Assembly (NCBI GenBank): GCA_964540965.1
Contig: CAZIOT010000009.1
Coordinates: 38,642-102,641, forward strand
Source of the DNA: an uncultured Rubellimicrobium sp.
GTDB lineage: Bacteria; Pseudomonadota; Alphaproteobacteria; Rhodobacterales; Rhodobacteraceae
Direction of reading: 5' to 3'
Length of the DNA stretch: 64,000 bases
Part shown: in pieces, positions 10,384 through 27,602 of the stretch
How the letters are laid out: every line of letters begins with the position of its first letter
Numbering within the stretch: the first letter of the stretch is position 1
Notes under the pieces: model-generated
Seen by the model: only the letters and a program-made list of their open reading frames with translations
The model's database searches: none
What the model was told of the DNA's origin: nothing
Translations under genes and position numbers: made by a program

Positions 10384-10956
10384 TCATTCGGTGGGGGCAC
10401 CGGTGTTGCGGCCGGCAAGGATGACGCTGATCGAATAGGCGCGCTCGGGCGTCAGCCCGGCCATGATCGCGGCGGCGGCAGCGGGCTGCATCATGCCAAG
10501 GAATCCGGCGCTGAAGGCGGGATCCATGGTTTCGAACAGCACCGCGGCATCCTGCGGCTTCATGTTTTCATAGACCGCGGTCAGCCGGTCGAGATCGTCC
10601 TGCGCGGCGCTGTCGGCCAGTGCAATCATCTCGGCAAGGGATTGTTCGGCGCTGGCAAGTTCCGCAATCTTTTCCTCGATCTGCGCCGTGGCCACCGCGA
10701 CGGCCTGTTCTCGGTCGGCCAGGGCGCGCTCGCGCTCGGCCAGCCGCGATTCGCGGGTGCGGAACGCGTCCAGCAGGGCGCCGGTGCCCTGTTCGGCAAC
10801 GCAGGTGCCGGCGACCTCGGCCGTTTCGGCCGGCGGTTCGGTGCCGACGGCGAAGGCCATGTCGGCGTGCCCGCCCAGCCGCACCACGCCCGAGCCGAAC
10901 AGGAGGATGGCAAGCCAGCCCAACACGCCGGGCCTGCGGCGATTGCGCACGGCCAT
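10384..10956 (-). CDS. MotE/FlbB-like protein (MgtE_N-like domain)
   Basis: N-terminal anchor, a coiled coil, then the motif YENMKPQDAAVLFETMDP..AAAIMAGLTP typical of MotE/FlbB family proteins. Confidence 0.6.
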   Translation of the reverse strand: MAVRNRRRPGVLGWLAILLFGSGVVRLGGHADMAFAVGTEPPAETAEVAGTCVAEQGTGALLDAFRTRESRLAERERALADREQAVAVATAQIEEKIAELASAEQSLAEMIALADSAAQDDLDRLTAVYENMKPQDAAVLFETMDPAFSAGFLGMMQPAAAAAIMAGLTPERAYSISVILAGRNTGAPTE

Positions 10957-11303
10957 CAGCGCCGCCCCACCATTTCGGGATGGCGCACGAAGACCGAGGA
11001 GGCCGGCCGTGGCGCCGGCTCTGGCAGGTCGTGCAGCGAGGCGAGCAGCAGTTCCAGCCGGCCCGCCGCGGCCTCGGCCCGGTCGGACACGGCAGCAAGC
11101 TGCGCCGCGGCCTCGCCGGCGCGGGTTTCGGCGCCCTGCAGCATCCGCGACAGGTCGTCGACCTGGGCCGACAGGACGGCGACGGCGCCGCCGACGCCCT
11201 TCTCGAGATCGGTGAACCGCCGCAGGCGGCGGGCCAGGACGATGCAGTACAGGCCCGCGCCCATCGCGCCGGCGGCCATCAGGATATCGGCAATCGCATT
11301 CAT
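10956..11303 (-). CDS. Small membrane-anchored coiled-coil protein, unknown function
   Basis: 115 aa with one N-terminal TM helix followed by coiled coil. Its stop overlaps the next start (TGATG). Confidence 0.55.
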   Translation of the reverse strand: MNAIADILMAAGAMGAGLYCIVLARRLRRFTDLEKGVGGAVAVLSAQVDDLSRMLQGAETRAGEAAAQLAAVSDRAEAAAGRLELLLASLHDLPEPAPRPASSVFVRHPEMVGRR

Positions 11304-11859: not shown

Positions 11860-11874
11860 CTAACCGATTGTTAA
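11860..11874. promoter_or_regulatory. Candidate CtrA box (cTAAC-N5-GTTAA, equivalent to xTAA-N7-TTAA) in the fliL/fliF divergent promoter region
   Basis: The sequence CTAACCGATTGTTAA lies between the divergent starts at 11846 and 11934. It matches the TTAA-N7-TTAA(C) consensus except for one base. Confidence 0.45.
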
Positions 11875-15649: not shown

Positions 15650-16750
15650 TCAGCGCACGATGAATTCCGCATGAAGCGCCCCGGCGGCGCGGATGCTTTT
15701 CAGGATGTCGATCATGTCGGTCGGCGCCACGCCCAGTGCGTTCAGACCGGCGACCACCTCGGACAGGCTGGTCCCTTCGCCGACCTCGGCAAGGCCGCCC
15801 TGCTCGGTCGCGATGCCGACATTGCTGCGCGGCACCACCACCGTCTCGCCTTCGGAAAACGGGTTCGGCTGCACCACCAGCGGTGCTTCCTCGACGGTCA
15901 GGGTCAGGCCGCCCTGGCTGACGGCGACGCGGCTGATCCGCACGTCCTCGCCCATGACGATGGTGCCCGAGCGCTGGTCGACGACGACGCGGGCGCGGGT
16001 TTCCGGCTCGACCAGGATATTCTCGATCCGGCCCAGGGCGTGGGCGGGCGAGGGCATCCGCATGGCGCCGATGTCGAGTTCGACCGTGCCGGCATCCAGC
16101 ATGATGGCGACCTGACGGCCGAATTCTGCGTTGACGGCGCCTTCGATGCGGCCGGCGGTGGTGAAATCGGGGGTGCGCAGGGCCAGGCGGACATAGGACA
16201 GGTCCGACAGGGCAAAGGCGACCTCGCGTTCCACGGTGGCGCCGGCGGGGATCACCCCGGCGGTGGGCACGCCTTGGGTGACGGTGGCGGCTTCGCCTTC
16301 GGCGCTGACGCCGCCGGCGATGATCGTGCCCTGCGCCACGGCATAGATGTCGCCGTCCGCAGCGTTCAGCGGCGTCATGACCAGGGTGCCGCCAAGCAGG
16401 CTCGACGCGTCGCCGATGGCCGAGACCGTGACGTCGATCGGCGATCCGGCGCGGGCAAAGGGCGGCAGGGTAGCGGTGACCAGAACCGCGGCCACATTGC
16501 GCGGCCGGAACTGTTCGCCGGTGACGTTCACCCCCAGCCGTTCCAGGATATTGGCCATGATTTCTTCGGTGAACGGCGAATTCCGCAGGCCGTCGCCGGT
16601 CCCGTTCAGGCCGACGACAAGGCCATAACCGACCAGCTCGTTCGAGCGCACGCCGTCGAATTCGACCAGATCCTTGATCCTGACCGGGCTTGCCGTGACG
16701 GGCGCGGCAAAGGGCAGGGCGACCAGCGCGGCAAGAAGCAGCGCGCGCAT
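15650..16750 (-). CDS. flgI: Flagellar P-ring protein FlgI
   Basis: 366 aa, signal peptide and full-length FlgI similarity (RIKDL..VRSNELVGYGLVVGLNGTGD). Confidence 0.95.
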   Translation of the reverse strand: MRALLLAALVALPFAAPVTASPVRIKDLVEFDGVRSNELVGYGLVVGLNGTGDGLRNSPFTEEIMANILERLGVNVTGEQFRPRNVAAVLVTATLPPFARAGSPIDVTVSAIGDASSLLGGTLVMTPLNAADGDIYAVAQGTIIAGGVSAEGEAATVTQGVPTAGVIPAGATVEREVAFALSDLSYVRLALRTPDFTTAGRIEGAVNAEFGRQVAIMLDAGTVELDIGAMRMPSPAHALGRIENILVEPETRARVVVDQRSGTIVMGEDVRISRVAVSQGGLTLTVEEAPLVVQPNPFSEGETVVVPRSNVGIATEQGGLAEVGEGTSLSEVVAGLNALGVAPTDMIDILKSIRAAGALHAEFIVR

Positions 16751-17754
16751 CAGAGATAGGCCCCGAGCGACAGGCCGGCGAGCCGCGCCGTGACCGCATA
16801 TTGCGTGTCAAGGCGGGTCTGCACCTCGGTCAGGGCGGTGGCGGCTTCGTAGGGGTCGGCGGCGATCAGGTCGTTGCGCAGCATCTTTGCCGCCGACAGC
16901 GCCGCCCCCTGCCGGGCGGTGGCGGCATCGACGGCCTCTTGCGTGGCGCCCAGCCGGGCGCGGGTCGCGGTCAGGCCTTCGGCGGCGGCGACAAGGCCGG
17001 TGCCGGCGTCGCGCAGGGCGGTGGCGCGGTCATTGTCCGACAGCGTCATGCCGGGGTCGCCGGCCATGGCGGCCTTGGCCAGCGACTTCATTACCGCCTT
17101 CAGTTCGGCCGCGTCGGCGCGGGGGTCGAGCGTCACGGTCAGGTCGCCGATGCGGCGGGTGGCGGCGCTGCCGGTGTCGCCGCGGTAGACGGTGGTGGCA
17201 AAGCCGCCGGCGGGGTCGTCAAAGAAGCTGTCGATACGGGCGGTCAGGTCGGCGGCATCGGTCGCGCCGGCGACCGCGCTGCGCAGCGCGGTCATCACCG
17301 TGCCGGCGCCGGCCAGGGCCGGGCTGTCGGTGGCAGTGCCGGCGAACAGGCTTTCGCCGCCCTGCCGCCCGTTCAGCGCCGAGATCACCGTCTCGAGCCC
17401 GGCTTGCGCCTTGGCCGCGGCGCCGGCGATGACCGAGGGCGCGGCGGCGATCGGCAGGGCCAGCAAATCCGAGGACAGGGTGCTGCGCTGCGCCTCGATC
17501 GAGTCGAGCGCGACCTGCGTGGTGTCAAGGCGCGCGCCCAGCGCGGCGCTGGCCTTCTGTTCGGTGGTCCGCAGCGTGATGGTGCGGTCGAGGTCGACCA
17601 GAAGATCGGAACGCCCGTTCAGATGCGCCACCGGATCGGCGACCTGGCCCGAGGCGACCTCGGCCGAGAGTTGCGCCAGCCGTTCCTTGAGCGCGGTGGT
17701 GTTGCGCAGGCCGGCGAAATGCCGGGCCATGTCGCCGATGGACGTGAGGGCCAT
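16750..17754 (-). CDS. flgL: Hook-associated protein 3 FlgL
   Basis: 334 aa with a flagellin-like N-terminus and C-terminus. Lies directly after flgK; its stop overlaps the flgI start. Confidence 0.8.
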   Translation of the reverse strand: MALTSIGDMARHFAGLRNTTALKERLAQLSAEVASGQVADPVAHLNGRSDLLVDLDRTITLRTTEQKASAALGARLDTTQVALDSIEAQRSTLSSDLLALPIAAAPSVIAGAAAKAQAGLETVISALNGRQGGESLFAGTATDSPALAGAGTVMTALRSAVAGATDAADLTARIDSFFDDPAGGFATTVYRGDTGSAATRRIGDLTVTLDPRADAAELKAVMKSLAKAAMAGDPGMTLSDNDRATALRDAGTGLVAAAEGLTATRARLGATQEAVDAATARQGAALSAAKMLRNDLIAADPYEAATALTEVQTRLDTQYAVTARLAGLSLGAYL

Positions 17755-17757
17755 GGG

Positions 17758-19179
17758 TCAGATCTCCATCAGGGTGCGGATCATGTCGTCGATGGCCGTG
17801 AGAACCCGGGCATTGGCGGCATAGGTCTGTTCGATGCGCAGAAGCAGCGCGGTTTCGGCGTCGGAATCGACGCCGCCGGCAAGTTCGGAGTCGCGCAAGG
17901 CGGCATAGCGGCCGGTCGCATAGGACTGCGATTCTTCGGCCCGCAGGCGGGCGTTGCCGGCGCCGGCAGCAAGGCTGGCGGTGCGGTCGGCGAAACTGGC
18001 GCCCGCGGCGGTGGAATCGAGCGCGTCGGTCCAGGCGTCAAGCTGTGTCGCATTGCCGACCGGGCCGGCCGCGGTGGCGCCGACCCCATCGCGCAGCCGC
18101 CAGAGGGCCCCGCCCCGCGCCGGGTCGATGGCGGCATTGACGGCAAGGCGGCTGGCAAGGCCGGTGGTGTCGGCGGGATCGCGGCGGCCGCCGGCATCGG
18201 TGAACAGGCCGGGAGTGGTGGCGCCGAGGGTCGGGTCGACGGCGGGGTTGGTGAAGCGGTCGATCAGGTCGGCGGCAAGGGCATCAAGCTCTGCGGCCTG
18301 TCCGGGCAGCACGGTATCGCGCAGCCGGAACGCGGCGCCGAGCGAGCCGCCGTCCATCAGAGCGGTGCCGCTGATCGGCTGGCCGTCGCGGGTCAGGCCC
18401 GAAAGCGCGCCGGTCCCAAGGGTCATGTCGGCGGTCATGGTATGGACGGCGGCAAAGCCGTATTCGCGTGCGGGGCCGTCGATCAGCACCTCGCCGCCCG
18501 TGGTGACAAGGGCGATCTGCCCGGCCGACCTGTCGAGTTCGCGCACCGGGACGATGCGGGCGATGGTGTCGACGATGCCCTGTCGCTGGTCCATCAGCGC
18601 CGCGGCGTCCTGCCCGGTGTTGACCGCATTGGCGATGCCGAGGTTCACCTCTTCCAGCGCCTTGAGGCTGCGGTTGAGGGTGGCGATGTCGCTGGCGATC
18701 CGGCCGTCGGCGGCAAGCCGCTCTTTCTGGACGGCGGCGGCGGCGGCGTTGATGCCGCTGGCCAGCCCGTTCAGCCGGTCGCGCAGGGTGCCCAGCGCGA
18801 TTTCCGAGGACGGGTTCGCCGCGGCCGAGGTCAGGGAGGATTGCAGCGCGGCCAGCCGGGCGGCGATGCCGTCGCCGGCGCCGGCGGTGCCGATGGCGGT
18901 TTCGACCCGGCCGAGTGCGCCGAGGGTCAGGTCGCTGGCCGTCATCACCGACTCGGCGGCGCGGCGGTCGGACAGGATGCCGCGGTCGACGATGCGGGCG
19001 ATGCCGTCGACGCGCACGCCGCCGCCCTGTCCGCCCAGGACACGCGCCGACAGCAGGACCTCGCGCCGGCCATAGCCTTCGGTCAGGGCGTTGGCGAGGT
19101 TCGACGACACCGTTTCGGCCATGCGCGAGGTGGCGGCAAGCCCGCTCAGCGCGTTGGACAGGGAATGCGACAGGCTCAT
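17758..19179 (-). CDS. flgK: Hook-associated protein 1 FlgK
   Basis: N-terminus MSLSHSLSNALSGLAATSRMAETVSSNLANALTEGY and a conserved C-terminal rod/hook segment. Confidence 0.9.
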   Translation of the reverse strand: MSLSHSLSNALSGLAATSRMAETVSSNLANALTEGYGRREVLLSARVLGGQGGGVRVDGIARIVDRGILSDRRAAESVMTASDLTLGALGRVETAIGTAGAGDGIAARLAALQSSLTSAAANPSSEIALGTLRDRLNGLASGINAAAAAVQKERLAADGRIASDIATLNRSLKALEEVNLGIANAVNTGQDAAALMDQRQGIVDTIARIVPVRELDRSAGQIALVTTGGEVLIDGPAREYGFAAVHTMTADMTLGTGALSGLTRDGQPISGTALMDGGSLGAAFRLRDTVLPGQAAELDALAADLIDRFTNPAVDPTLGATTPGLFTDAGGRRDPADTTGLASRLAVNAAIDPARGGALWRLRDGVGATAAGPVGNATQLDAWTDALDSTAAGASFADRTASLAAGAGNARLRAEESQSYATGRYAALRDSELAGGVDSDAETALLLRIEQTYAANARVLTAIDDMIRTLMEI

Positions 19180-19191
19180 CGGCTTTGGTCC

Positions 19192-20493
19192 TTACCGCTT
19201 GATATTGGTGGTTTCCTGCAACATCTCGTCCACGGTCTGGATGACCTTGGCGTTGGAGGAATAGGCGCGTTGCGTCTGGATCAGGCTGGTCAGTTCGCCG
19301 GCGACATCGGTGGCCGATTCCTCGCGCGCGTAACCCAGGATTTCGCCGGTGGGGCCGTCGCCGGCATCCCACAGGAAGAACGAGCCGCTGTCCGAGGTGA
19401 CGCCGTAGGTCTGGTCGTCGAACACGGCCAGGCCGTTGGGGTTCGGCACGTCGACCAGCGGAATCTGGTAGATGGTCCGGGTGATGCCGGTGTCGAACAG
19501 GGCGTGGACATAGCCGTTGGCATCGACCTCGACCGAGGTCAGGTTGCCGGCGGCCGAGCCGTTCTTGCTGATGTCGACGGGGGCGAAGGAATCGGACAGC
19601 TGCGTCATGCCGCTGGGCGAGCCGAGGGCGCCGATGTTGACCTCGATCGGGCCGCCGGCGACGTTCACCGTCATCAGGCCGGTCGCCGGGTCATAGGCGC
19701 CGCCGCTGGTCGTGGTGACGGAAAGAAGCGTGCCGCCGCCGCCGCGCGAACTGTCGAATGTCAGGGTGTATTCGCCGATCACCGCCCCGCCCGAGGCGCT
19801 GTCGGTCAGGGTCATCGTCCACTGGTTCGACGATCCGGTGGCGGGCACCACCGGGCTGAAGCTGACACCGACATTGGCCGATTTGCCGAGGTTGTCGAAA
19901 TATTCGATGGAGAGTTCGCGGCTGTCGCCGGGGGCGCCCGCCGCGGATTCGGTTGCGGGCAGGTTGACGATAAGGTCGAAGGCTGTCGTCGGTTCGCCCG
20001 AAAGCTGGTTGCGGTTGATCCGCACCGGTTCAAGCCCCGCCATTGTGTCGCGCGGATAGGCCGGGATGGTGCCGTCACTGTTGGCGGGCCAGCCCAAGAG
20101 CATCAGGCCGCCGCTGGTGGTGAGATAGCCGTTCTGGTCGGTCAGGAACGATCCGGTCGTGGTCAGCAGCAGATCCTGCTGGCCATTGGCGACATTGACC
20201 GAGGATCCGGTGGTGACCGGCAGCATGCCGCGGCCGCGCACGGCAAGATCGGTGGCGCTGGCGGTCGAGATCAGCGCGCCGCGTTCGTCGATCAGCCGGG
20301 CCGAAGTGGTGCGGACGCCGCCGGCGGTGTAGCTGCCCTTGCCGGAATTGATGACCATGGCGTGGAAATCGGTCACCGCCCGCTTGTAGCCATAGGTCGA
20401 GGAATTGGCGATGTTGTCCGAAATGGTCGCCAGCCGGTTGGCGTTGGCGTTCAGACCGGCGACACCGGCGTTGAGCGAGGACGAGATCGTCAT
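19192..20493 (-). CDS. flgE: Flagellar hook protein FlgE
   Basis: N-terminus SLNAGVAGLNANANRLATISDNIANSSTYGYK and C-terminus LIQTQRAYSSNAKVIQTVDEMLQ. Confidence 0.9.
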   Translation of the reverse strand: MTISSSLNAGVAGLNANANRLATISDNIANSSTYGYKRAVTDFHAMVINSGKGSYTAGGVRTTSARLIDERGALISTASATDLAVRGRGMLPVTTGSSVNVANGQQDLLLTTTGSFLTDQNGYLTTSGGLMLLGWPANSDGTIPAYPRDTMAGLEPVRINRNQLSGEPTTAFDLIVNLPATESAAGAPGDSRELSIEYFDNLGKSANVGVSFSPVVPATGSSNQWTMTLTDSASGGAVIGEYTLTFDSSRGGGGTLLSVTTTSGGAYDPATGLMTVNVAGGPIEVNIGALGSPSGMTQLSDSFAPVDISKNGSAAGNLTSVEVDANGYVHALFDTGITRTIYQIPLVDVPNPNGLAVFDDQTYGVTSDSGSFFLWDAGDGPTGEILGYAREESATDVAGELTSLIQTQRAYSSNAKVIQTVDEMLQETTNIKR

Positions 20494-20556
20494 GGGGGGC
20501 CTTTCGGGCTGCGGATGAAGCAGCCCTCCTATAGCGCGCGGTGTCTTAAGGACGCG

Positions 20557-21411
20557 CTAACGCTGGCGCTCGGTCCGCAGGAGCGTGATCTCGAACCTGT
20601 CGTTGCGTTCGGACAGCGGGTTGTCGGTGGCCGGACTCGAGTCGCCATGCCCAGTCAGGCGGCGCAGGCGGGCAAGGTCAAACCCGCCGTCCTGCATCAG
20701 CCGCCGCAGCACCCCGGCACGGGCCGAGGACAGATCCCATACCGGGCTGTCGGCCAGCACCACCGGCTGCGAGGGCACATAGGCGTCAATGGCCAATGGG
20801 TTTGTGACGATGCTGGCCATGGTGGCAATGGTTTCGACGATTTCCCGGGTGACGGGCAGCGGTTCGGCGGTGGTTCCGTCAAAGATCGGGGCATCGGGCA
20901 GGGCAAAGACCTCGATCACCAGCCCCTCGTCCGTCAGCCGGGTGACGACATGGCGCAACGCCATGTCCGACAGCAGGCTTTCGCCGCCGCGACCCAGAAG
21001 CGCGTCCTCGACCTGTTCCAGCGTGGCGGTTTCGACCGCCGCCGCGGCGGCCGAGCCGTCGGCGTCGTCGAATTGCGGAAAGGTCGATTGACCGGCGATG
21101 CCCAGAGCCAGCCCCTCTCCGGTGTTGGCCATCGGGTCAAGAGAGGAGGGGCTGTCGCCGCCGAACATGCCGTCCGAGCCGCCCGAGGTGCGGCTGATCG
21201 GCGCCACCGGCGCAAAGTAATCGGCGATTCCCTTGCGTTGCTGTTCCGTGGTCGCGTTCAGCAGCCACATCAGCATGAAGAATGCCATCATCGCGGTCAC
21301 GAAATCGGCGTAGGCGACCTTCCATGCCCCGCCGTGGTGACCGCCGCCGGCGATCACCTTCTTGCGCTTGATGATGACAGGCGCATTTCCGGCCTGTGCC
21401 ATCTGTCCCAT
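20557..21411 (-). CDS. motB: Flagellar stator protein MotB
   Basis: The N-terminal plug/TM segment AWKVAYADFVTAMMAFFMLMWLL contains the conserved Asp. OmpA-like C-terminal region. Confidence 0.85.
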   Translation of the reverse strand: MGQMAQAGNAPVIIKRKKVIAGGGHHGGAWKVAYADFVTAMMAFFMLMWLLNATTEQQRKGIADYFAPVAPISRTSGGSDGMFGGDSPSSLDPMANTGEGLALGIAGQSTFPQFDDADGSAAAAAVETATLEQVEDALLGRGGESLLSDMALRHVVTRLTDEGLVIEVFALPDAPIFDGTTAEPLPVTREIVETIATMASIVTNPLAIDAYVPSQPVVLADSPVWDLSSARAGVLRRLMQDGGFDLARLRRLTGHGDSSPATDNPLSERNDRFEITLLRTERQR

Positions 21412-21478
21412 CCCTAACTCACCCGCAATCGGGATAAGGGGTCAGGGGTTAACCCGGCCTTGACGATTCAAATCGAGG

Positions 21479-22243
21479 TCAAAGGCCACGCCGGCGCCAT
21501 ATTTCGTCGGGGCCGCAGAATTCGACCAGATCATAGCCGGCATGGGTCATGATGCGCGCGATCTCTGGCCCGCCGGTGTTGTTCTCGATCGCCCAGACGG
21601 CGACGTTGTGGCGGTCAAAGGGAAAGGCGGACAGCGCCGCGGCCTCGCCGCCCTCGATGTCGAGCGAGATGAAGTCGGGGTCGGGGATACCGGCATCGGC
21701 CAGGATGCCGGCGATGGTGCGGGTCTGGACGCGAAAGCTGCGCTCCTTGTGCCGCGGATCGGCGCGCACCCGGTCGAGCAGGCCGGGGTCATAGCTGGCC
21801 GACAGCCCGCTCATCTGCGTGTAACCTTCGCTGATCTCGATGAAATCGGCGTCGCCGTCGACGGCGGCGACGGCAAGGCCCAGACAGGGGCAGCGGCGCA
21901 CCATCTTGGCGCGCGCCAGCTGCGCGGGAACGGGTTCGACAAGGACGCCGGTCCAGCCGCGCCAGAATTCGAAGAACAGCGTGTTCGACCCGGTGGTGCC
22001 GTCATAGCCGCCGATATCGACAAAGGTGCCGCCGCGCCTGCCGCCGAGGATACGGTCGACGACCACATCCTGACCGGCCTGGCTGGAATAGGGATAGCCC
22101 TGCGTCAGCATGTGGCGCAGTTCGTGGATGCGGCGGTTGATCTGGCCGCGGCGACGCGAACGGTCGCCCTCGAGCAGCCGCGCCTGTTCGGCCAGGATCT
22201 CCTGCGCGGTGCGGCGCAGGTCGGCGATGCGGTCATCGGCCAT
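21479..22243 (-). CDS. FkbM-family SAM-dependent methyltransferase
   Basis: Motif FVDIGGYDGTTGSNTLFFE and overall FkbM-like layout. ATG at 22243 is preferred over the upstream in-frame start at 22291. Confidence 0.75.
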   Translation of the reverse strand: MADDRIADLRRTAQEILAEQARLLEGDRSRRRGQINRRIHELRHMLTQGYPYSSQAGQDVVVDRILGGRRGGTFVDIGGYDGTTGSNTLFFEFWRGWTGVLVEPVPAQLARAKMVRRCPCLGLAVAAVDGDADFIEISEGYTQMSGLSASYDPGLLDRVRADPRHKERSFRVQTRTIAGILADAGIPDPDFISLDIEGGEAAALSAFPFDRHNVAVWAIENNTGGPEIARIMTHAGYDLVEFCGPDEIWRRRGL

Positions 22244-22649
22244 TGCCGCCCTCCTTGCCCAGATAGTCGGCGTAGGACTTTTCCTCGACAATGAGCGAGC
22301 CGAGATGCAGGTTGATCGCCTTCTTTACCGCGGCGCGTTCGTCGTTGACCCGATAGACCGCGCGGGCAAGGCCGATGAAGGCCGGGCCGAAATCGCCGGC
22401 GCGTTCGCAATCGCGGATGTCGTCCTCGATCACCCAGAGGCGGGCGTTGATCCCGTAAAGCGCGTCCCACAGTTCCGAAAGCCGGTCCGAGGGCGGCAGG
22501 TGGGCGTCGGCGGTGGCCAGCAGCACTGCCTGTTCGTGACGGACATTGGCCAGTTTTGCGGCATCGGCGATCCGTTCGGCCTTGAGCCGCAGGATCGTCA
22601 GCTTGTCGATCAGCTCGCCGGGCGAGGTCGGCACCAGAATGTCAGTCAT
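22233..22649 (-). CDS. Small helical protein, DUF6165-like (recognised from memory, unverified)
   Basis: 138 aa starting MTDILVPTSPGELIDKLTILRLK. ATGA overlap with the upstream TPR-glycosyltransferase gene. Confidence 0.6.
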   Translation of the reverse strand: MTDILVPTSPGELIDKLTILRLKAERIADAAKLANVRHEQAVLLATADAHLPPSDRLSELWDALYGINARLWVIEDDIRDCERAGDFGPAFIGLARAVYRVNDERAAVKKAINLHLGSLIVEEKSYADYLGKEGGNGR

Positions 22650-24010
22650 CTGTCCCCCTTCGGCGCCGCAAGGGCGGCAAGGTCGCTGCGCACCCGTTCC
22701 AGCACGCCCGGCCAGTCGCGCGGCCGGTCCTGCCGGTAAAGGCGCATCGAAGGATACCACGGACTGCTCTCGCGTTCGAGTTGCCAGAGCCAGAACGCAT
22801 CCCAGTGCAAGAGCGTCCAGGTCGGCCGGCCCAGCGAGCCGGCGATATGGCAGGTGGCGGTGCAGGAGGTGACGATCAGGTCCATTTCCTGCATCATCGC
22901 GGCGCAATCGGCGAAATCGCGGTCGGTCGAGGCGGCATCGACGATCAGCGCGCTGCTGCCATCGGCCTTGAAGGCCTCAAGCTCGGGCCCCTTGTACAGC
23001 GAGAACATCTGCACGCCGGGCACGTCGAGCAGGCGGTGCAGCAGCGTGTGGCTGAACGAGCGGAAGGCGTTTGCGCGGTAGGTGACAGAGCCGCACCAGA
23101 CCACGCCGACCTTGAATTTGCCCTTGTGAGGCGCAGTGATGGCGCGGGCACGGGCGCGGCTGTCCTCGGGCACGGTCAGGCGGGTGGGGGGCGGGACCGC
23201 GGCATCGGCATCGAAATGCAGCGGCGGCAGGTCCATGATGTTGGTCCAGACATCATAGGGTTCGTCGGGTTGCAGGCCGACCCAATCGGCGCCCTCGACT
23301 CCGGCCATCAGCCGCAGAAGCGGCTTTTCGCACAGAAGCAGCACCCGTTTCGGGTTGAACCGACGCAGCACCGGCAGGAAACGGGCAAAGGTGACGGCAT
23401 CGCCAAAGCCCTGTTCGGGCAGGACAAGGATGGTCTTGCCGGTCAGGTCGCCGCCGTCCCATTTCGGCGTCACCATCTGCCGCGGCTTGAGCTCTCCGGT
23501 CAGCCAGCGGGCGTCGTAGTGACGGAAACCGTCGGTATAGTTCCCGGCGGCCAGTTCCGTCAGCGCAAGCTGGATCGTCAGTTCGTGAAAGCCGGGATGG
23601 GCGGCGCCATGGCGCTTCAGGACGGCGATCGATTCGTCATGGCGGCCAAGGGCGCGCAGGCTCTTGCCCTCCATCGCCTTGGCCATCGCATCGCCGGGTT
23701 CCAGCGCGATCAGCCGGCGCCGCAATTCAAGCGAGCGTTCGTTTTCGCCCACATCGTTCAGGATATTGGCGAAATTGTTCAGCGTGCCGCGGTTGTCCGG
23801 GTCAAGGGCATAGGCGCGTTCCTGTGCGGCGATGGCAAGGTCGTGGCGCGACTGGACGCGGAACAGCACGCCAAGGTTCGACCAGATCGCCCCGTCCCCG
23901 GGCACTTCGGCCAGGTATTCGGCATAGGCCGCCAGCGCCTCGGTCAGCTTGCCGGCGCGGTGGGCGCCGGTCGCGCGGTCGCGCAGCGCGTTCAGCCGGG
24001 CAGAGGTCAT
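22646..24010 (-). CDS. TPR-repeat protein fused to a GT9/heptosyltransferase-like GT-B domain
   Basis: The N-terminal ~190 aa are TPR-like (AIWSNLGVLF.., AYALDPDN..). The C-terminal domain has the GT9-type motif ILVLPEQGFGDAVTFARFLPVL. Confidence 0.75.
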   Translation of the reverse strand: MTSARLNALRDRATGAHRAGKLTEALAAYAEYLAEVPGDGAIWSNLGVLFRVQSRHDLAIAAQERAYALDPDNRGTLNNFANILNDVGENERSLELRRRLIALEPGDAMAKAMEGKSLRALGRHDESIAVLKRHGAAHPGFHELTIQLALTELAAGNYTDGFRHYDARWLTGELKPRQMVTPKWDGGDLTGKTILVLPEQGFGDAVTFARFLPVLRRFNPKRVLLLCEKPLLRLMAGVEGADWVGLQPDEPYDVWTNIMDLPPLHFDADAAVPPPTRLTVPEDSRARARAITAPHKGKFKVGVVWCGSVTYRANAFRSFSHTLLHRLLDVPGVQMFSLYKGPELEAFKADGSSALIVDAASTDRDFADCAAMMQEMDLIVTSCTATCHIAGSLGRPTWTLLHWDAFWLWQLERESSPWYPSMRLYRQDRPRDWPGVLERVRSDLAALAAPKGDR

Positions 24011-24807
24011 CCCTGGTCCCCGCCGTGGCGGCGGACCGGACGCAGCAGTGTCTCGGGGCGGCGCGCCTCGGCCGCCTCGAACAGGGAAAAGGTCTGGTTG
24101 ACGTAGTTCACCGCGCCGGAAATCAGGTCAAAGTATTCGGCGACCTCCTTGGTGATCTCGGTTTCGACCATGGCGATGCTGCGGTCCTGCGGCGTCGTCT
24201 CGAACGTGGCGTAGAACAGCGGATCGCCGCGGTTGATGACGATGGGCTTGGTGGTGTCATGCCATTCGAAGGCCCACATCAAGGGCCGCGGCCAGACATT
24301 GATCGGAAAGCGCCCGCCAAAGATCGTGCCCGGCAGCGGGTTGCGCTGGTAGTGCATGAAGGGCGCAACCTGGCTCATGTAGCAGGGTTCGTCGGCGACG
24401 AAGATGTAGGGCAGCGCCAGCTGGATTGTCGGCACATCGGGGTGGCGCCATTCCACCTCGTTCGTGACATGCAGCTTTTCGCCCAGTTTCGAGGCGCGGA
24501 TCGTGCTTGCCTCGCCGGCCAGGTTACGAAGGCCCGGCTTGCCCTTTTCATCACGGAAAAAGCCGATGTTGAGGTCGAACGGGCAGCGGATGACGAAATA
24601 GCGCGCCTCGAGGCTGATCACCGCCGGGCAGCGGCTGGCCGATTTGGCATGGCGACGGTTCAGGTCCACCGAGCGCACCCGTTCCGGCGGGAAATAGATG
24701 ATGCCGGTCTTGGGTTCGGTCAGGCACCAGCCCACGGTCAGCGGGCCCGAAGGCGCGGCCTGCGGCCCGGTCTGTTCGAAGGTCACCTCGAATCTCATCG
24801 CTTTCAC
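24007..24807 (-). CDS. Conserved-looking hypothetical protein (266 aa), no recognisable motif
   Basis: Codon usage resembles its neighbours. ATGA overlap with the downstream gene and a 4-nt gap from the upstream gene. Confidence 0.6.
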   Translation of the reverse strand: MKAMRFEVTFEQTGPQAAPSGPLTVGWCLTEPKTGIIYFPPERVRSVDLNRRHAKSASRCPAVISLEARYFVIRCPFDLNIGFFRDEKGKPGLRNLAGEASTIRASKLGEKLHVTNEVEWRHPDVPTIQLALPYIFVADEPCYMSQVAPFMHYQRNPLPGTIFGGRFPINVWPRPLMWAFEWHDTTKPIVINRGDPLFYATFETTPQDRSIAMVETEITKEVAEYFDLISGAVNYVNQTFSLFEAAEARRPETLLRPVRRHGGDQG

Positions 24808-24811
24808 TCCC

Positions 24812-26488
24812 TCAAGGACGCGGCGGTTCGGGCGCCAGCCTAAGAATGTCGAATTTGGCCAGTTGCAGCGCGGCGGCCATCACCGCCTCGGGGCTGGCGC
24901 CGCCGGCGGCCGCCAGATCGCGCAGGCTGACCGGGCCTTTCGCCTGCACGGCTGCGGCAAGCTGCAACAGGGCGTCGGCGGTGGCGTGCTGGCGACGATA
25001 CAGCGCCTGTCCCGACAGCCGGGACAGAAGCGTGATCCGCTCTGCATCGGCGGGGCTGCCGGGGTGCAGGATGGTGTCGGGGCCGAAAACCCTTGTCGGA
25101 TAGTCGCGGTAAAGGTCGAAGGGATCGACCTCAAGCGGGCTGATCGCACCGGGGCCAAGCACCGGGGTCGAGACGGTGCTGCGCGCCCGAAGCGCGGCAA
25201 GCTCCTGCGCCAGCGCCAGATAATGCGGGATCACGGCGGCCCAGTCATAGGCGTGCCTGGCATGGCCCATCGCCGCCTGCCCCATGCGGCGGCGCAGGTC
25301 GTCATTGCCGATCAGCGCGGCAAAGGCGGCGGCATAGGCGGGCACGTCGATCTGGATCTGCGCCTGCACCAGCGTCAGATACTGGAGATAGCTGTCGGTA
25401 TCGTCGGCAAAGCGGCGGGCGAGCGTGGCGCCGCTGCCGGGCGGAGCCATGCTGGTGGCGACGCGGAGCCCGGCGGTGCCATGCGGCACGGTATCGCGAA
25501 AACCGTCCCAGTCGGGCATCACCACCGGCAGGCCGGCGGCCATCGCCTCGACCGGGACAAGGCCGAAGGTTTCCTGGATGGAGTCGGCGGGCAGGGTGAA
25601 TATGTCGGCCGCCGACCAGATGTTGCGGCGCAGGTCGGGGTCGCGGCCATCAAGCAGCGCGAATTTCACCCGCTTGCACAGGGCGGCGCCGGCCTCGCGG
25701 TGCAGCGCCTCTTCCTCGGCCCGGCTGGCCCAGCCGGCCATCCACAGATGCACGTCGCGCCCGGTCTTTTCGGCGGCCTGTTCCAGCGCCAGCATCAGGG
25801 GCACCGGATTGGCCTTTTCCACCACCGACAGCCGGCCCATGGTCAGGACCACCACCGCATCCGGGGCGACGCCCTGCGCCGCGCGCAGCCTTTCGCGGGC
25901 GCCGGGCTGGGGGGCGAAATCGGCGGTCTCGATGCCAAGCGGGATCACCGGCAGTTGCGGCAAGGGCATCCGCGTGGCGCCGAAACGGTGACGAAAGAAC
26001 TCGGTCTCAAGCTCGAACTGCCGCTTCACCACCGATTGCACCGCGCGCGAGGTGCAGATGATCGCGTCCCAGGGCTCGACCGGCTGCGACATCAGCCCGT
26101 GCAGGTTTTCGATGATGCGTTTCGTCGAGACGGTATGGGTAAGGCCGACCAGCGAACAGCGGAAAGCGCCGTATCGCAAGCGGCGCCAGGCGGCGGACTG
26201 AAAGCCGGGGGTGGGAAAGAACACCGTGCCGGCGGCGGTGAAATCGGACGATCCGCGCAATTCGGTGACGGTGATCGGACGGGTATCGCCCAATGCGCGG
26301 ACGCGCGCCTCGAATTCCTTGGCCGCGCCGGCGCTTTCCACAACGGCGCGGACGCTGTCGCCGCCGGCGTGGCGGAGGAAACCCTTGAGAAAGCTTTCCC
26401 CGGCCGAGCGTCGGCCGACCAGATCGCGGCCCTGGCCTTCTACCTGATCGGGATGGAAATAGATCGCGGGAACGGGAATATCCGGCAT
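24812..26488 (-). CDS. GT4/GT1-type glycosyltransferase with an extended N-terminal domain
   Basis: E-x7-E motif ETFGLVPVEAMAAGLPVV and a GT-B C-terminal half. ATG at 26488 (MPDIPVPAIYF) is preferred over 26545. Confidence 0.75.
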   Translation of the reverse strand: MPDIPVPAIYFHPDQVEGQGRDLVGRRSAGESFLKGFLRHAGGDSVRAVVESAGAAKEFEARVRALGDTRPITVTELRGSSDFTAAGTVFFPTPGFQSAAWRRLRYGAFRCSLVGLTHTVSTKRIIENLHGLMSQPVEPWDAIICTSRAVQSVVKRQFELETEFFRHRFGATRMPLPQLPVIPLGIETADFAPQPGARERLRAAQGVAPDAVVVLTMGRLSVVEKANPVPLMLALEQAAEKTGRDVHLWMAGWASRAEEEALHREAGAALCKRVKFALLDGRDPDLRRNIWSAADIFTLPADSIQETFGLVPVEAMAAGLPVVMPDWDGFRDTVPHGTAGLRVATSMAPPGSGATLARRFADDTDSYLQYLTLVQAQIQIDVPAYAAAFAALIGNDDLRRRMGQAAMGHARHAYDWAAVIPHYLALAQELAALRARSTVSTPVLGPGAISPLEVDPFDLYRDYPTRVFGPDTILHPGSPADAERITLLSRLSGQALYRRQHATADALLQLAAAVQAKGPVSLRDLAAAGGASPEAVMAAALQLAKFDILRLAPEPPRP

Positions 26489-26502
26489 CGTCCGGCCTGA
26501 AA

Positions 26503-26536
26503 TTGCATCTGGCGGCACTAAAGCCGCCAAATGCAG
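26503..26536 (-). terminator. Stem-loop (14-nt arms, 2 mismatches, 6-nt loop) after the Gfo oxidoreductase gene
   Basis: TTGCATCTGGCGGC-actaaa-GCCGCCAAATGCAG, followed on the minus strand by a short T-containing tract. Confidence 0.4.
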
Positions 26537-26546
26537 GGCGCGCAAG

Positions 26547-27602
26547 TCACACCGTCAGGTCGACCGAATGCGCCTTGTCCGAGGCGACGGCAAGGTCGAG
26601 CACCTTTTGCAGCGCGGCGCCGCGGGCGAAATCGGGTTTCACCTGGGCACCGGCGCGGATCGCCTCGATAAAGCGGACATAGTTGGTCTTGACCTCGGGG
26701 CAGGGCAGGTCTTTCCAGGTCGCGGACATCATGTCCGCGCCCAGGGATCCGCGCAGGGTCGAGACGTTGTTTTCCCACTTCACCTCAAGCCCGCCCTCCG
26801 TGCCGAAAATCCGCAGCGTCAGGTCGTTGAAATGGCCCGAGGCAAAGCGGGTGGCATGGATGACACCGATGGCGCCGTTGTCCAGCCGCAGGTGCAGCAC
26901 CGCGCTGTCGTTGGCGTCCAGCGTGTATTCGCCGATCTTTCCCCCCGGCGCCTTGTCGAAGGTCTGCAGCCGGCACGACACGCTGGCCGCGCCCGACCCC
27001 GCGGCAAAGGTCGCGAAATCAAGGATATGGACGCCGACATCGCCAAGAACGCCCATGGAGCCATGCGCGGTGGACAGCCGCCACAGCCACTGGCTTTCCT
27101 TGTCCCAATGCCCCCAGGCCGGCTGGGTCAGCCAGGATTGCAGATAGGACGCCTCGAAATGGCGGACGGCGCCGATGGCGCCGCCGGCGATCAGCCGCGC
27201 CGCCTCGTTCAGCGAGGCGACGTTGCGATAGGTCAGGTTCACCATGTTGATGATGCCCGACTGTTCCGCCGCCGCTGCCATTTCGGCGGCATGGGGATAG
27301 TTGGCCGCCAGCGGCTTTTCGCACATCACGTGCTTGCCCGCGGCGATCAGCGGCATCGTCGTCGGGTAATGCACGGGGTCGGGGGTGACATTCGACACCG
27401 CGTCGAATTCGCCCCAGGCAATCGCCTCGGCGACCGAGCCGAAGCCATGGCCGATGCCATGCGCGGCATTGAAGGCGGCAAGACGGTCGGCATTGGTATC
27501 GACGCCGGCCACCACGGTCACGCCCTCGATCGCCTGATAGGCCTCGACATGGGCCTTGGCCATGCCGCCGGTGCCGACGACCAGGATGCGGACGGGCTTC
27601 AC
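26547..27602 (-). CDS. Gfo/Idh/MocA-family NAD(P)-dependent oxidoreductase
   Basis: N-terminal Rossmann motif [14 protein letters not shown] and family-typical length. GTGA overlap with the thuA-like gene. Confidence 0.85.

What the first reader, a model, noticed from the sequence alone, without database searches (positions are those of the whole stretch)
21479..26488. Five-gene, translationally coupled glycosyl/methyl-transfer operon joined to motB-flgE-flgK-flgL-flgI: candidate undescribed flagellar protein glycosylation system
Seen in the sequence: five minus-strand genes are tightly packed. They are a GT4-type glycosyltransferase (24812-26488, E-x7-E motif ETFGLVPVE), an unknown 266-aa protein (24007-24807), a TPR domain fused to a GT9-like GT-B domain (22646-24010, LPEQGFGDAVTFARF), a small helical DUF6165-like protein (22233-22649) and an FkbM methyltransferase (21479-22243). 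The packing uses ATGA start/stop overlaps at 24007-24010 and 22646-22649, an 11-nt overlap and a 4-nt gap. The block ends 67 nt upstream of motB on the same strand. A stem-loop (26503-26536) separates it from the upstream sugar-oxidation genes. The block contains no nucleotide-sugar synthesis, flippase, polymerase or exporter gene. Established knowledge: a TPR domain fused to a GT-B domain is the architecture of protein-directed glycosyltransferases (OGT; Caulobacter flagellin glycosyltransferase FlmG), and FkbM enzymes often methylate glycans. Inference: this is a cytoplasmic module directed at flagellin, hook or hook-associated proteins that adds and methylates a sugar, distinct from the Maf/pseudaminic-acid and FlmG systems. 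No flagellin gene lies in the window, so the substrate is unknown.
Basis: partly seen in the sequence, partly recalled or inferred. Interest (0 to 1): 0.75.

Follow-up and report, generated by a model that had tools for sequence, protein, structure and literature searches.

The report
FlmG-like glycosylation genes beside flagellar cluster
A conserved gene set at the edge of a flagellar gene cluster in Rhodobacterales encodes a distant relative of FlmG, the Caulobacter enzyme that adds sugars to flagellin, together with partner proteins not described before, so it probably decorates a flagellar protein, but neither the target nor the sugar has been shown.

Summary
They are tightly packed and end 67 nt before motB, at the edge of a flagellar cluster longer than 21 kb.

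Across 80 related Rhodobacterales loci the conserved unit is B-C-D-E (58 of 67). The minimal core is C-D (D present in 72 of 73). A is optional (36 of 72). Every locus that could be judged abuts flagellar genes. In one Pseudoroseicyclus genome the block lies inside the cluster, directly after fliC-flaF-flbT.

Main correction: C is not distinct from FlmG. It aligns end to end with FlmG, the experimentally proven flagellin glycosyltransferase (25% identity; GT-domain profile E 6e-18).

Best reading (confidence about 0.55): a distant FlmG-type cytoplasmic O-glycosylation module for a flagellar protein. Its new accessory parts are:
- a DUF6165 partner, fused to the GT in Mesorhizobium;
- an FkbM methyltransferase;
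- a highly conserved protein with a weakly dUTPase-like fold;
- an optional GT4.

Caveats: donor and acceptor are unproven, and no nonulosonic-acid genes are linked. The GT family has more than 40,000 clusters. A C-D pair also sits on a plasmid with no flagellar genes nearby. Verdict: new variant of a known kind.

The parts
24812..26488 (-). A: GT4 (retaining GT-B) glycosyltransferase, 558 aa, with a C-terminal extension of about 130 aa that has no family match. Optional member of the block.
   Evidence: Pfam Glycos_transf_1 and Glyco_trans_1_4, E about 1e-16. The nearest solved relatives by sequence are Corynebacterium 'predicted glycosyltransferases' (3c4q/3c48, E 5.5e-12) and PimA; the best NCBIfam match is MshA, far below its cut-off. 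Present in 36 of 72 loci with enough upstream sequence.
24007..24798 (-). B: highly conserved protein of unknown function, 263 aa from the ATG at 24798 (the alternative GTG at 24807 gives 266 aa).
   Evidence: No Pfam or NCBIfam hit. 1501 homologues; the best 120 are all at least 68% identical and none carries a domain. 116 invariant columns across 22 sequences. AlphaFold model pLDDT 77. Foldseek finds only weak dUTPase and dCTP-deaminase matches, E 4e-3. Present in 67 of 72 loci.
23501..24010 (-). C, N-terminal TPR domain (residues about 1-170; ten helices).
   Evidence: Pfam TPR_16 E 1.7e-11 and other TPR families. The AlphaFold model has helices H3-18 through H158-170 at pLDDT above 90. Aligns with the FlmG TPR region.
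22646..23500 (-). C, C-terminal GT-B catalytic domain (residues about 171-454). Homologous to the FlmG GT-B domain and weakly GT9-like.
   Evidence: Profile A2 against the Brevundimonas subvibrioides FlmG GT-B domain: 70.6 bits, E 6e-18 at Z = 1e6, covering profile positions 13-291 of 298. PF01075 E 0.032. PDB 3tov, a GT9 enzyme, E 0.035. Whole-protein model pLDDT 89.5; the top Foldseek hits are SPINDLY and OGT.
22233..22649 (-). D: DUF6165 protein, 138 aa. Near-constant partner of C.
   Evidence: PF19662, 37.4 bits, above the cut-off. ATGA overlap with C. Present in 72 of 73 loci. Next to C on the Paroceanicella plasmid. Fused to the C-terminus of a TPR-GT protein in Mesorhizobium.
21479..22243 (-). 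E: FkbM-family SAM-dependent methyltransferase, 254 aa.
   Evidence: PF05050, 57.8 bits; TIGR01444, 38.4 bits; both above cut-off. Overlaps D by 11 nt, with AAGGAGG upstream of its start. Present in 68 of 73 loci.
21449..21463 (-). CtrA-like box (TCAAGGCCGGGTTAA on the minus strand) in the 67-nt E-motB spacer. Probably part of motB's own promoter.
   Evidence: It is one of only three matches with at most one mismatch to TTAA-N7-TTAA in the 64-kb window. All three lie in intergenic regions of the flagellar cluster. A similar box is present in 33 of 58 E/D-motB spacers, against a background of 0.0125 per 100 nt.
26503..26536 (-). Stem-loop with a 13-bp stem between the GFO-family oxidoreductase gene and A, ending about 15 nt before A's ATG.
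   Evidence: RNA fold of 26480-26560: -44.3 kcal/mol, z = -5.9; none of 200 shuffles folds as well. The terminator scan did not call it, because it has no T-run.
15650..21411 (-). Context: motB, flgE, flgK, flgL and flgI directly downstream on the same strand. The flagellar cluster continues to window position 1.
   Evidence: Pfam MotB_plug, Flg_bbr_C, FlgK_D1, Flagellin_C and FlgI. Further left: flgG, flgA, flgH, fliL, flhB, flhA, motA, fliF and fliP.

Best explanation
The block is a cytoplasmic protein O-glycosylation module of the FlmG type that belongs to the alphaproteobacterial flagellar gene cluster of a subgroup of Rhodobacterales.

Shown:
- D (DUF6165) almost always accompanies C and is fused to the enzyme in another genus.
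- B-C-D-E is the conserved unit, and it always lies next to flagellar genes.

Inferred:
- The TPR domain of C binds an unfolded flagellar export substrate before type III export. Flagellin is the most likely substrate; hook or hook-associated proteins are alternatives.
- The GT-B domain, working with D as a subunit or regulator, transfers a sugar from a nucleotide-sugar onto Ser or Thr.
- E methylates that sugar.
- Where A is present, it adds a second sugar.
- B has a weakly dUTPase-like barrel and may bind or modify the nucleotide-linked donor. This is the weakest step.
- No pseudaminic- or legionaminic-acid genes are linked to the block; the donor sugar is unknown.
For: 1. C aligns with the FlmG Cc-Bs chimera from residues 29-444 to 148-594, 25% identity, E 1e-15 (FlmG sequence taken from the supplement read). 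The GT domain alone gives E 2e-11. The family profile scores 70.6 bits, E 6e-18 at Z = 1e6, over the whole GT-B domain.
2. FlmG is sufficient to glycosylate flagellin, and its TPR domain binds flagellins (PMC7591256).
3. Seventy-one of 72 loci that can be judged have flagellar genes directly downstream of the block, and the remaining one (L047) has flgJ and fliK remnants. This holds across at least 12 genera and three locus arrangements.
4. In L014 an inversion left B-E with the flagellar genes, between fliC-flaF-flbT-DUF1217 and motB, and apart from ThuA/GFO/A.
5. C and D co-occur in 72 of 73 loci, overlap by ATGA, and are fused in Mesorhizobium.
6. The block has no membrane, flippase or export genes.
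7. Nine of 73 loci have a CtrA-like box upstream of B, roughly 5-10 times the background rate.
8. The only linked flagellin seen, in L014, is 491 aa long with a Thr/Ser/Ala-rich middle region.
Against: 1. The GT domain family is very large: 41,528 clusters at 50% identity have E below 1e-3. Some replicons carry up to 12 copies. C is closer to uncharacterised Azospirillum and Burkholderia members (32-41% identity) than to FlmG (25%). Homology therefore does not fix the acceptor.
2. A C-D pair lies on a Paroceanicella plasmid with no flagellar gene in 19 kb. Azospirillum and Burkholderia plasmids carry TPR-GT genes with FkbM genes and no flagellar genes in view.
3. ThuA-GFO on the other side of the block is syntenic in many loci too. 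Adjacency could therefore be inherited gene order rather than functional linkage.
4. Most loci have a sigma-70-like promoter, not a CtrA-type one, upstream of B, and none has a CtrA-like box upstream of A.
5. No NeuB or CMP-nonulosonate synthetase gene occurs in the window or in any of 87 loci, so the FlmG donor chemistry is not evident.
6. No flagellin gene lies in the window.
Confidence: 0.55

Rival explanations
1. The block is an FlmG-family protein glycosyltransferase system whose acceptor is not flagellar, for example an adhesin, a pilin or a cytoplasmic protein. It sits at the border of the flagellar cluster only because gene order is inherited vertically in this clade.
For: The C-D pair occurs without flagellar neighbours on a Paroceanicella plasmid. 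The family is very large and has many paralogues. ThuA-GFO synteny on the other flank is also well conserved. The promoter upstream of B is sigma-70-like rather than CtrA-type. B-E stay intact and under purifying selection in loci where motB through fliC are deleted, and Wenxinia marina is reported as immotile with no flagellar gene cluster (PMC5030684).
Against: The retention argument fails its control. The true flagellar genes flgJ, flgN, fliK and flgD on the other flank of the same deletion are also retained, and flgD, the one measured, shows similarly low dN/dS. In L014, B-E moved with the flagellar genes and ended up directly behind the flagellin operon. All orthologous loci that can be judged are next to flagellar genes.
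Confidence: 0.22
2. The block modifies a cell-envelope glycan such as LPS core, capsule or EPS. In this reading C acts like a GT9 heptosyltransferase, A is a second transferase, and E methylates the glycan.
For: The GT domain shows weak GT9 similarity (PF01075 E 0.032; PDB 3tov E 0.035; some homologues are named 'glycosyltransferase family 9 protein'). GT4 and FkbM genes are common in polysaccharide loci (established knowledge). In Marivivens a PglF/WbpM-type dehydratase gene lies between E and motB.
Against: The block has no flippase, polymerase, lipid-carrier transferase or exporter, and no predicted membrane protein family. The TPR domain and the homology to FlmG point to a protein acceptor. 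The block is never seen inside a polysaccharide locus in the 80 loci.
Confidence: 0.1
3. Together with the upstream ThuA and GFO-family oxidoreductase genes, the block makes or modifies a soluble methylated glycoside or compatible solute.
For: FAH, TauE, ThuA, GFO and A-E all lie on the same strand. The nearest characterised relatives of A make small-molecule or lipid glycosides: its best NCBIfam match is MshA (far below cut-off) and its PDB relatives include PimA. In this genome A follows GFO with only a hairpin between them.
Against: ThuA and GFO are absent next to the block in many loci, for example L014, L017, L032, L033 and L044. A is optional. A TPR-bearing FlmG homologue is not expected for a small-molecule acceptor.
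Confidence: 0.06

Closest known systems
FlmG flagellin O-glycosyltransferase (Caulobacter crescentus, Brevundimonas subvibrioides)
   Same: [quoted passage not shown] The homology covers the full length. Both are soluble and cytoplasmic, and both are encoded among flagellar genes. In neither protein does a Pfam model reach its cut-off on the GT domain.
   Different: Only 25% identity. The TPR region is shorter, about 170 aa against about 300 aa. The donor-side motif differs: TS(D/C)TAT(A/C)H(L/I)AGSLG here against GPGIAGTNIAAAAG in FlmG. No linked Pse or Leg genes. It comes with DUF6165, FkbM, protein B and an optional GT4; whether FlmG has such partners could not be checked here. The literature describes FlmG as confined to Caulobacterales (bioRxiv 10.1101/2023.12.03.569772).
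Maf (MAF_flag10) flagellin glycosyltransferases
   Same: Maf enzymes also glycosylate flagellin in the cytoplasm, and some carry a TPR domain.
   Different: Maf enzymes have a GT-A fold. None of the five proteins matches a MAF_flag10 model. The block is not a member of this family.
GT41 protein O-glycosyltransferases (OGT, SPINDLY, Xanthomonas XcOGT)
   Same: These have TPR plus GT-B architecture. They are the top Foldseek hits for the whole model of C (E 1e-10 to 1e-7).
   Different: TM-scores are only 0.27-0.37, with rmsd of 14-20 Å. There is no Pfam Glyco_transf_41 hit. The catalytic domain is much smaller. The resemblance is one of architecture, not family membership.
GT9 heptosyltransferases, including the autotransporter heptosyltransferases TibC and AAH (the latter recalled from my own knowledge)
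   Same: Weak sequence similarity at the N-terminal GD motif and at the DS/T-G-x-x-H-x-A-x-x-x-G motif. TibC and AAH show that GT9-like enzymes can modify proteins in the cytoplasm (my own knowledge, not tested here).
   Different: PF01075 scores 14 bits against a cut-off of 22 for C. GT9 enzymes have no TPR domain.
FkbM-family methyltransferases in flagellin glycosylation islands
   Same: E is an FkbM-family member above the cut-off. A literature search found FkbM genes mentioned in papers on flagellin glycosylation islands of Geobacillus and Enterobacteriaceae (only titles and term counts were seen).
   Different: The substrate of E is unknown. E has an N-terminal helical extension of about 50 aa.

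Membership tests
FlmG-class flagellin glycosyltransferase | N-terminal TPR domain | tested here: met
   Pfam TPR_16 E 1.7e-11 and other TPR families. The AlphaFold model has ten helices in residues 3-170.
FlmG-class flagellin glycosyltransferase | C-terminal GT-B domain homologous to that of FlmG | tested here: met
   Profile A2 against the B. subvibrioides FlmG GT-B domain: 70.6 bits, E 6e-18 at Z = 1e6, profile positions 13-291 of 298. BLASTP of the GT domains: 25% identity over 300 columns, E 2e-11.
FlmG-class flagellin glycosyltransferase | [quoted passage not shown] | not testable with these tools
   Only genomic linkage is available: flagellar neighbours in all loci that can be judged, and a position directly after fliC-flaF-flbT in L014.
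FlmG-class flagellin glycosyltransferase | The donor is CMP-pseudaminic or CMP-legionaminic acid, so the genome has a NeuB/PseI/LegI pathway | tested here: inconclusive
   tblastn with B. subvibrioides NeuB and CMP-synthetase found nothing in the window or in 87 loci. Whole genomes could not be searched, and in Caulobacter the locus tags of flmA, flmB and neuB lie far from that of flmG.
FlmG-class flagellin glycosyltransferase | Orthology, meaning closest characterised relative and the same clade | tested here: not met
   C is 25% identical to FlmG but 32-41% identical to uncharacterised Azospirillum and Burkholderia proteins. It is a distant family member, not an orthologue.
Maf flagellin glycosyltransferase | MAF_flag10 (GT-A) domain | tested here: not met
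   None of the five proteins has such a hit at E below 0.1.
GT41 (OGT/SPINDLY) | Glyco_transf_41 catalytic domain | tested here: not met
   No Pfam hit. The Foldseek matches reflect shared architecture only, with TM about 0.3.
GT9 (heptosyltransferase) | PF01075 above the gathering score | tested here: not met
   C scores 14.0 bits against a cut-off of 22. The Mesorhizobium homologue just reaches it, at 22.5 bits. PDB 3tov gives E 0.035.
GT4 (protein A) | Glycos_transf_1 domain and an E-x7-E motif | tested here: met
   59.8 bits against a cut-off of 26.4. ETFGLVPVE is present in the translation.
DUF6165 (protein D) | PF19662 above the gathering score | tested here: met
   37.4 bits against a cut-off of 27, residues 8-127.
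FkbM methyltransferase (protein E) | PF05050 or TIGR01444 above cut-off | tested here: met
   57.8 bits against 22.7, and 38.4 bits against 37.7.
dUTPase / dCTP deaminase fold (protein B) | Significant structural or sequence match | tested here: inconclusive
   Foldseek best E 3.8e-3, with TM normalised to the target of 0.45-0.69. The model has pLDDT 77, and two of the five models were poor. There is no sequence-family hit.

The most novel reading that the evidence does not exclude
B-C-D-E is a multi-component flagellin glycosylation system outside Caulobacterales. In this reading an FlmG-like TPR-GT-B enzyme needs a DUF6165 subunit and installs a methylated sugar that is not a nonulosonic acid, and protein B supplies a new donor-processing activity. 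Because DUF6165 or FkbM genes accompany, or are fused to, members of the same GT family in Paroceanicella, Mesorhizobium, Azospirillum and Burkholderia, the mechanism could apply to a largely uncharacterised family of more than 40,000 protein clusters.
Probability: 0.3. Interest if true: 0.72.

Novelty: new variant of a known kind. Interest (0 to 1): 0.58.

Why it matters
A recent preprint describes FlmG-type flagellin glycosyltransferases as confined to Caulobacterales and tied to pseudaminic or legionaminic acid. This locus places a clear FlmG homologue inside the flagellar cluster of many roseobacter-group genera, with no linked nonulosonic-acid genes. It also brings three partners that have no assigned role: DUF6165, FkbM and a very conserved unknown protein.

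If confirmed, three things would follow:
- the known range and chemistry of cytoplasmic flagellin glycosylation would widen;
- DUF6165 would get its first functional context;
- a very large family of TPR-glycosyltransferases, some with three to six catalytic domains in one protein, would gain an experimental entry point.

Flagellar surface chemistry also matters for the swim-or-stick lifestyle and for phage and host recognition in marine Rhodobacterales.

Tried and rejected
1. Retention as evidence against a flagellar role. B-E stay intact and under purifying selection in 11-12 loci where motB through fliC are deleted, and published work reports flagellum-less relatives. I first read this as evidence against a flagellar function. 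I rejected it because flgJ, flgN, fliK and flgD on the other flank are retained as well, and flgD shows similarly low dN/dS. All these loci also share one nucleotide-identical breakpoint. Retention therefore reflects the history of a single deletion allele.

2. Fetching flmG from metagenomes. An exact 22-mer taken from a published primer gave no matches. The sequence was eventually recovered from a synthetic-gene table in a preprint supplement.

3. Walking beyond the left edge of the window with the look-up of encoding contigs. FlgH and FlgA are not on record, and the only indexed contig is 5.6 kb.

4. Foldseek with the whole model of C. The result is dominated by the TPR plus GT-B architecture, with TM about 0.3.

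5. Sequence search of PDB with the GT-domain profile. Only a marginal GT9 hit appeared.

6. Representative search with the GT-domain profile. The top 150 are mostly giant multi-domain proteins, so it did not reveal FlmG.

7. Full CtrA boxes. None occurs in the window without a mismatch.

8. Sigma-70 consensus scan around the block. Nothing was found, because in this genome A and B have no spacer.

9. Literature searches for DUF6165, DUF4254, flmE/flmF and flmQ. Nothing usable came back.

10. Flagellin next to the block. It is seen only in L014.

Full report
The junctions are two ATGA overlaps, an 11-nt overlap preceded by AAGGAGG, and a 67-nt spacer before motB.

Family scans confirm each call:
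- A is GT4.
- B matches nothing.
- C has strong TPR hits and only a weak GT9 hit (E 0.032).
- D is DUF6165.
- E is FkbM.

Homologues and an independent gene call put B's start at the ATG at 24798, giving 263 aa. The A-B gap is then 13 nt. The hairpin at 26503-26536 is strong, z = -5.9.

Downstream lie motB, flgE, flgK, flgL and flgI. The rest of the window down to position 1 is flagellar: flgG, flgA, flgH, fliL, flhB, flhA, motA, fliF and fliP. Upstream lie a GFO-family oxidoreductase, ThuA, TauE and an FAA hydrolase. The block therefore sits at the edge of a large flagellar cluster.

**What is conserved.**
A scan of one genome per species found 155 relatives of C, and 80 loci were fetched. 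All are Rhodobacterales, including Rubellimicrobium, Pseudoroseicyclus, Octadecabacter, Loktanella, Yoonia, Marivivens, Limimaricola, Wenxinia and Salibaculum.

Gene content in the 67 loci with enough flank on both sides:

| Genes present | Loci |
|---|---|
| ABCDE | 31 |
| BCDE | 27 |
| CDE | 3 |
| CD | 2 |
| BCD | 2 |
| ABCD | 1 |
| ABCE | 1 |

D accompanies C in 72 of 73 loci. A is present in 36 of 72.

In most other genomes A and B are 60-110 nt apart. Under a strict pattern, 21 of 72 loci have a sigma-70-like promoter (TTGAC(T/A), 16-17 nt, GATTCTAT or TTCAGT) 25-45 nt upstream of B. The same pattern occurs in 0.19% of control windows.

The E-motB spacer holds a CtrA-like box in the window. 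It is one of only three in 64 kb, and all three lie in flagellar intergenic regions. A similar box occurs in 33 of 58 loci. None lies upstream of A, and 9 of 73 loci have one upstream of B.

The general picture is an optional A, a B-C-D-E operon with its own promoter, and then motB with a promoter of its own. The tight five-gene packing is particular to this genome.

**C is an FlmG homologue.**
Pfam does not model the catalytic domain of C. PDB sequence search gives only a marginal GT9 hit. The full-length AlphaFold model (pLDDT 89.5) matches SPINDLY and OGT only at the level of architecture, with TM about 0.3.

I recovered a synthetic flmG chimera from a preprint supplement. It joins the C. 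crescentus TPR region to the B. subvibrioides GT-B domain. Comparison with C gave:
- End-to-end alignment, 25% identity over 462 columns, E 1e-15.
- A profile of the GT domain of C's family scores 70.6 bits on the FlmG GT-B domain. E is 6e-18 for a nominal database of one million sequences, and the match covers profile positions 13-291 of 298.
- Shared motifs include (V/L)(L/V)xEQG(F/I)(G/A)D, KVG(V/L)xW, DL(I/V)V and YP..R.

[quoted passage not shown] A recent preprint states that FlmG is confined to Caulobacterales. C is a distant member of the same family.

**Limits of that homology.**
The GT domain family is very large. It has 41,528 clusters at 50% identity with E below 1e-3, and many are proteins with three to six tandem copies of the domain. 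One example is a 3114-aa cyanobacterial protein.

On plasmids it is abundant in Azospirillum (up to 12 places per replicon), Ralstonia and Burkholderia. Identity to C there is 27-41%, higher than to FlmG.

Several contexts lack flagellar genes:
- A C-D pair with the same ATGA overlap lies on a Paroceanicella plasmid with no flagellar gene in 19 kb.
- Azospirillum and Burkholderia plasmids combine TPR-GT genes with FkbM genes.

A Mesorhizobium protein of 760 aa joins TPR, the GT domain and DUF6165 in one chain. This is a Rosetta-stone fusion, and it argues that D works physically with the enzyme.

**Linkage to flagella.**
Downstream of the block the loci fall into three arrangements:

| Arrangement | Genes after the block | Loci |
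|---|---|---|
| Type 1 | motB-flgE-flgK-flgL-flgI | 51 (plus 5 cut by contig ends) |
| Type 2 | flgN and flgJ (opposite strand), fliK, flgD, UbiB | 11, plus L047 probable |
| Type 3 | motB, flgE, then flgN, fliK, flgD, UbiB | 4 |

In Pseudoroseicyclus sp. CXY001 (L014) the order is flgD, fliK, flgJ, flgN, fliC, flaF, flbT, DUF1217, B, C, D, E, motB, flgE and onward. This fits an inversion of the segment from B to the far end of the cluster. B-E therefore stayed with the flagellar genes and not with ThuA/GFO/A. The flagellin there is 491 aa long with a Thr/Ser/Ala-rich centre.

**An argument I dropped.**
B-E remain intact in type 2 loci, with dN/dS of 0.03-0.25, similar to neighbouring housekeeping genes. 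Wenxinia marina is reported as immotile with no flagellar gene cluster. Rubellimicrobium mesophilum is reported to have no structural flagellar genes. This looked like evidence against a flagellar role.

Three findings remove that reading:
- All 11 type 2 loci share one breakpoint at nucleotide resolution. motB is cut after ...GGAWKVA (TGGAAGGTCGCC|AT) and joined to the start codon and 5' leader of the opposite-strand flagellin gene.
- These loci are scattered across the tree of B, C and D.
- flgJ, flgN, fliK and flgD on the far flank are also retained, and flgD, the one measured, has similarly low dN/dS.

Retention therefore reflects the history of one deletion allele. True flagellar genes behave the same way, so the observation says nothing about the function of B-E.

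**The other proteins.**
- A: its best NCBIfam match is MshA, far below cut-off, and its nearest solved relatives include PimA.
- B is the most conserved protein of the block. Its model is mostly beta-strand and matches dUTPase and dCTP deaminase only weakly, E 4e-3.
- D and E have no informative solved relatives.
- No NeuB or CMP-nonulosonate synthetase gene occurs in the window or in any locus.
- In three Marivivens loci, a PglF/WbpM-type 4,6-dehydratase gene of 630 aa lies between E and motB.

**Verdict.**
The most likely reading, at about 0.55, is a distant FlmG-type cytoplasmic glycosylation module for flagellin or another flagellar export substrate. D would be an enzyme partner, E a sugar methyltransferase, A an optional second transferase, and B an unknown helper.

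The rivals are:
- a non-flagellar protein acceptor (0.22);
- an envelope glycan (0.10);
- a soluble glycoside made together with ThuA and GFO (0.06).

This is a new variant of a known kind. It is of moderate to good interest, because it extends FlmG-like systems beyond Caulobacterales and gives DUF6165 a testable role.

Noticed in passing
L005, L007, L025, L031, L047, L049, L055, L057, L063, L073, L080 (for example L080:12610-12960): Eleven phylogenetically scattered loci carry the same deletion, which removes everything from motB codon 34 to the flagellin start codon. The junction is identical at nucleotide level: TGGAAGGTCGCC|AT, followed by the antisense of the flagellin Shine-Dalgarno sequence and 5' leader. 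This points to one old flagellum-loss allele spread by recombination, or to a very precise hot spot. The flagellin promoter would now read antisense into E.
   Followed up: partly
L018, L042, L052, L072: A second recurrent arrangement keeps motB and flgE but goes straight on to flgN, fliK, flgD and UbiB, with flgK and the genes after it missing. It occurs in four genera. The breakpoints were not examined.
   Followed up: no
window 11860-11874, 20546-20560, 21449-21463: These are the only three matches to TTAA-N7-TTAA with at most one mismatch in the 64-kb window. All lie in flagellar intergenic regions: fliL/fliF, upstream of flgE, and upstream of motB. Chance expectation is 0.35 matches.
   Followed up: partly
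L014:5400-5690 and the right flank of the type 2 junctions: The flagellin upstream region has conserved elements across genera: a CtrA-like box, GCATCC...GGATGGCGC, GTCAGAATGAC, and a hairpin GGCGCAAAAGCGCC just before the Shine-Dalgarno sequence. The hairpin could be the target of FlbT/FlaF translational control.
   Followed up: no
About 25-45 nt upstream of B in 21 of 72 loci (for example L044, L062, L075): A conserved sigma-70-like promoter: TTGAC(T/A), 16-17 nt, then GATTCTAT, TTCAGT or TTCAAT. It is about 150 times more frequent here than in control windows. It is absent in the window, where B follows A directly.
   Followed up: partly
L084:6005-8287 (Mesorhizobium sp. INR15 plasmid): A single 760-aa protein joins TPR repeats, the GT9-like/FlmG-like domain and DUF6165. 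It is annotated only as 'DUF6165 family protein'.
   Followed up: yes
P0241-P0389 (representative search): Many proteins of 1,300-3,140 aa carry three to six tandem copies of this GT domain. One, P0241 (3114 aa), is from an Oscillatoriales cyanobacterium. Their function is unknown.
   Followed up: partly
L068:12491-14383 (also L060 and L067): In Marivivens, a 630-aa Polysacc_synt_2 (PglF/WbpM-type UDP-GlcNAc 4,6-dehydratase) gene lies on the opposite strand between E and motB. This may hint at a 6-deoxy-HexNAc donor.
   Followed up: no
L086 (Azospirillum lipoferum 4B plasmid AZO_p6) and L082 (Burkholderia ambifaria pBMC401): Clusters of several TPR-GT paralogues lie with FkbM and other methyltransferase or glycosyltransferase genes, with no flagellar genes in view. 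Some Azospirillum replicons have up to 12 copies of the GT domain.
   Followed up: no
window 7319-9454, 10384-10956, 10956-11303, 2294-2686: Four ORFs inside the flagellar cluster have high GC3 and no significant Pfam match. The largest is 711 aa.
   Followed up: no
window 26503-26536: A strong 13-bp hairpin without a T-run ends about 15 nt before A's start codon, which leaves no room for a promoter. In this genome A-E must be transcribed through it from the GFO gene. It could act as an attenuator or an RNA-stability element.
   Followed up: partly
L083 (Ralstonia solanacearum megaplasmid): A 550-aa TPR-GT homologue (about 28% identity) lies two genes from fliI-fliJ-fliK and is flanked by diguanylate cyclase genes.
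   Followed up: no
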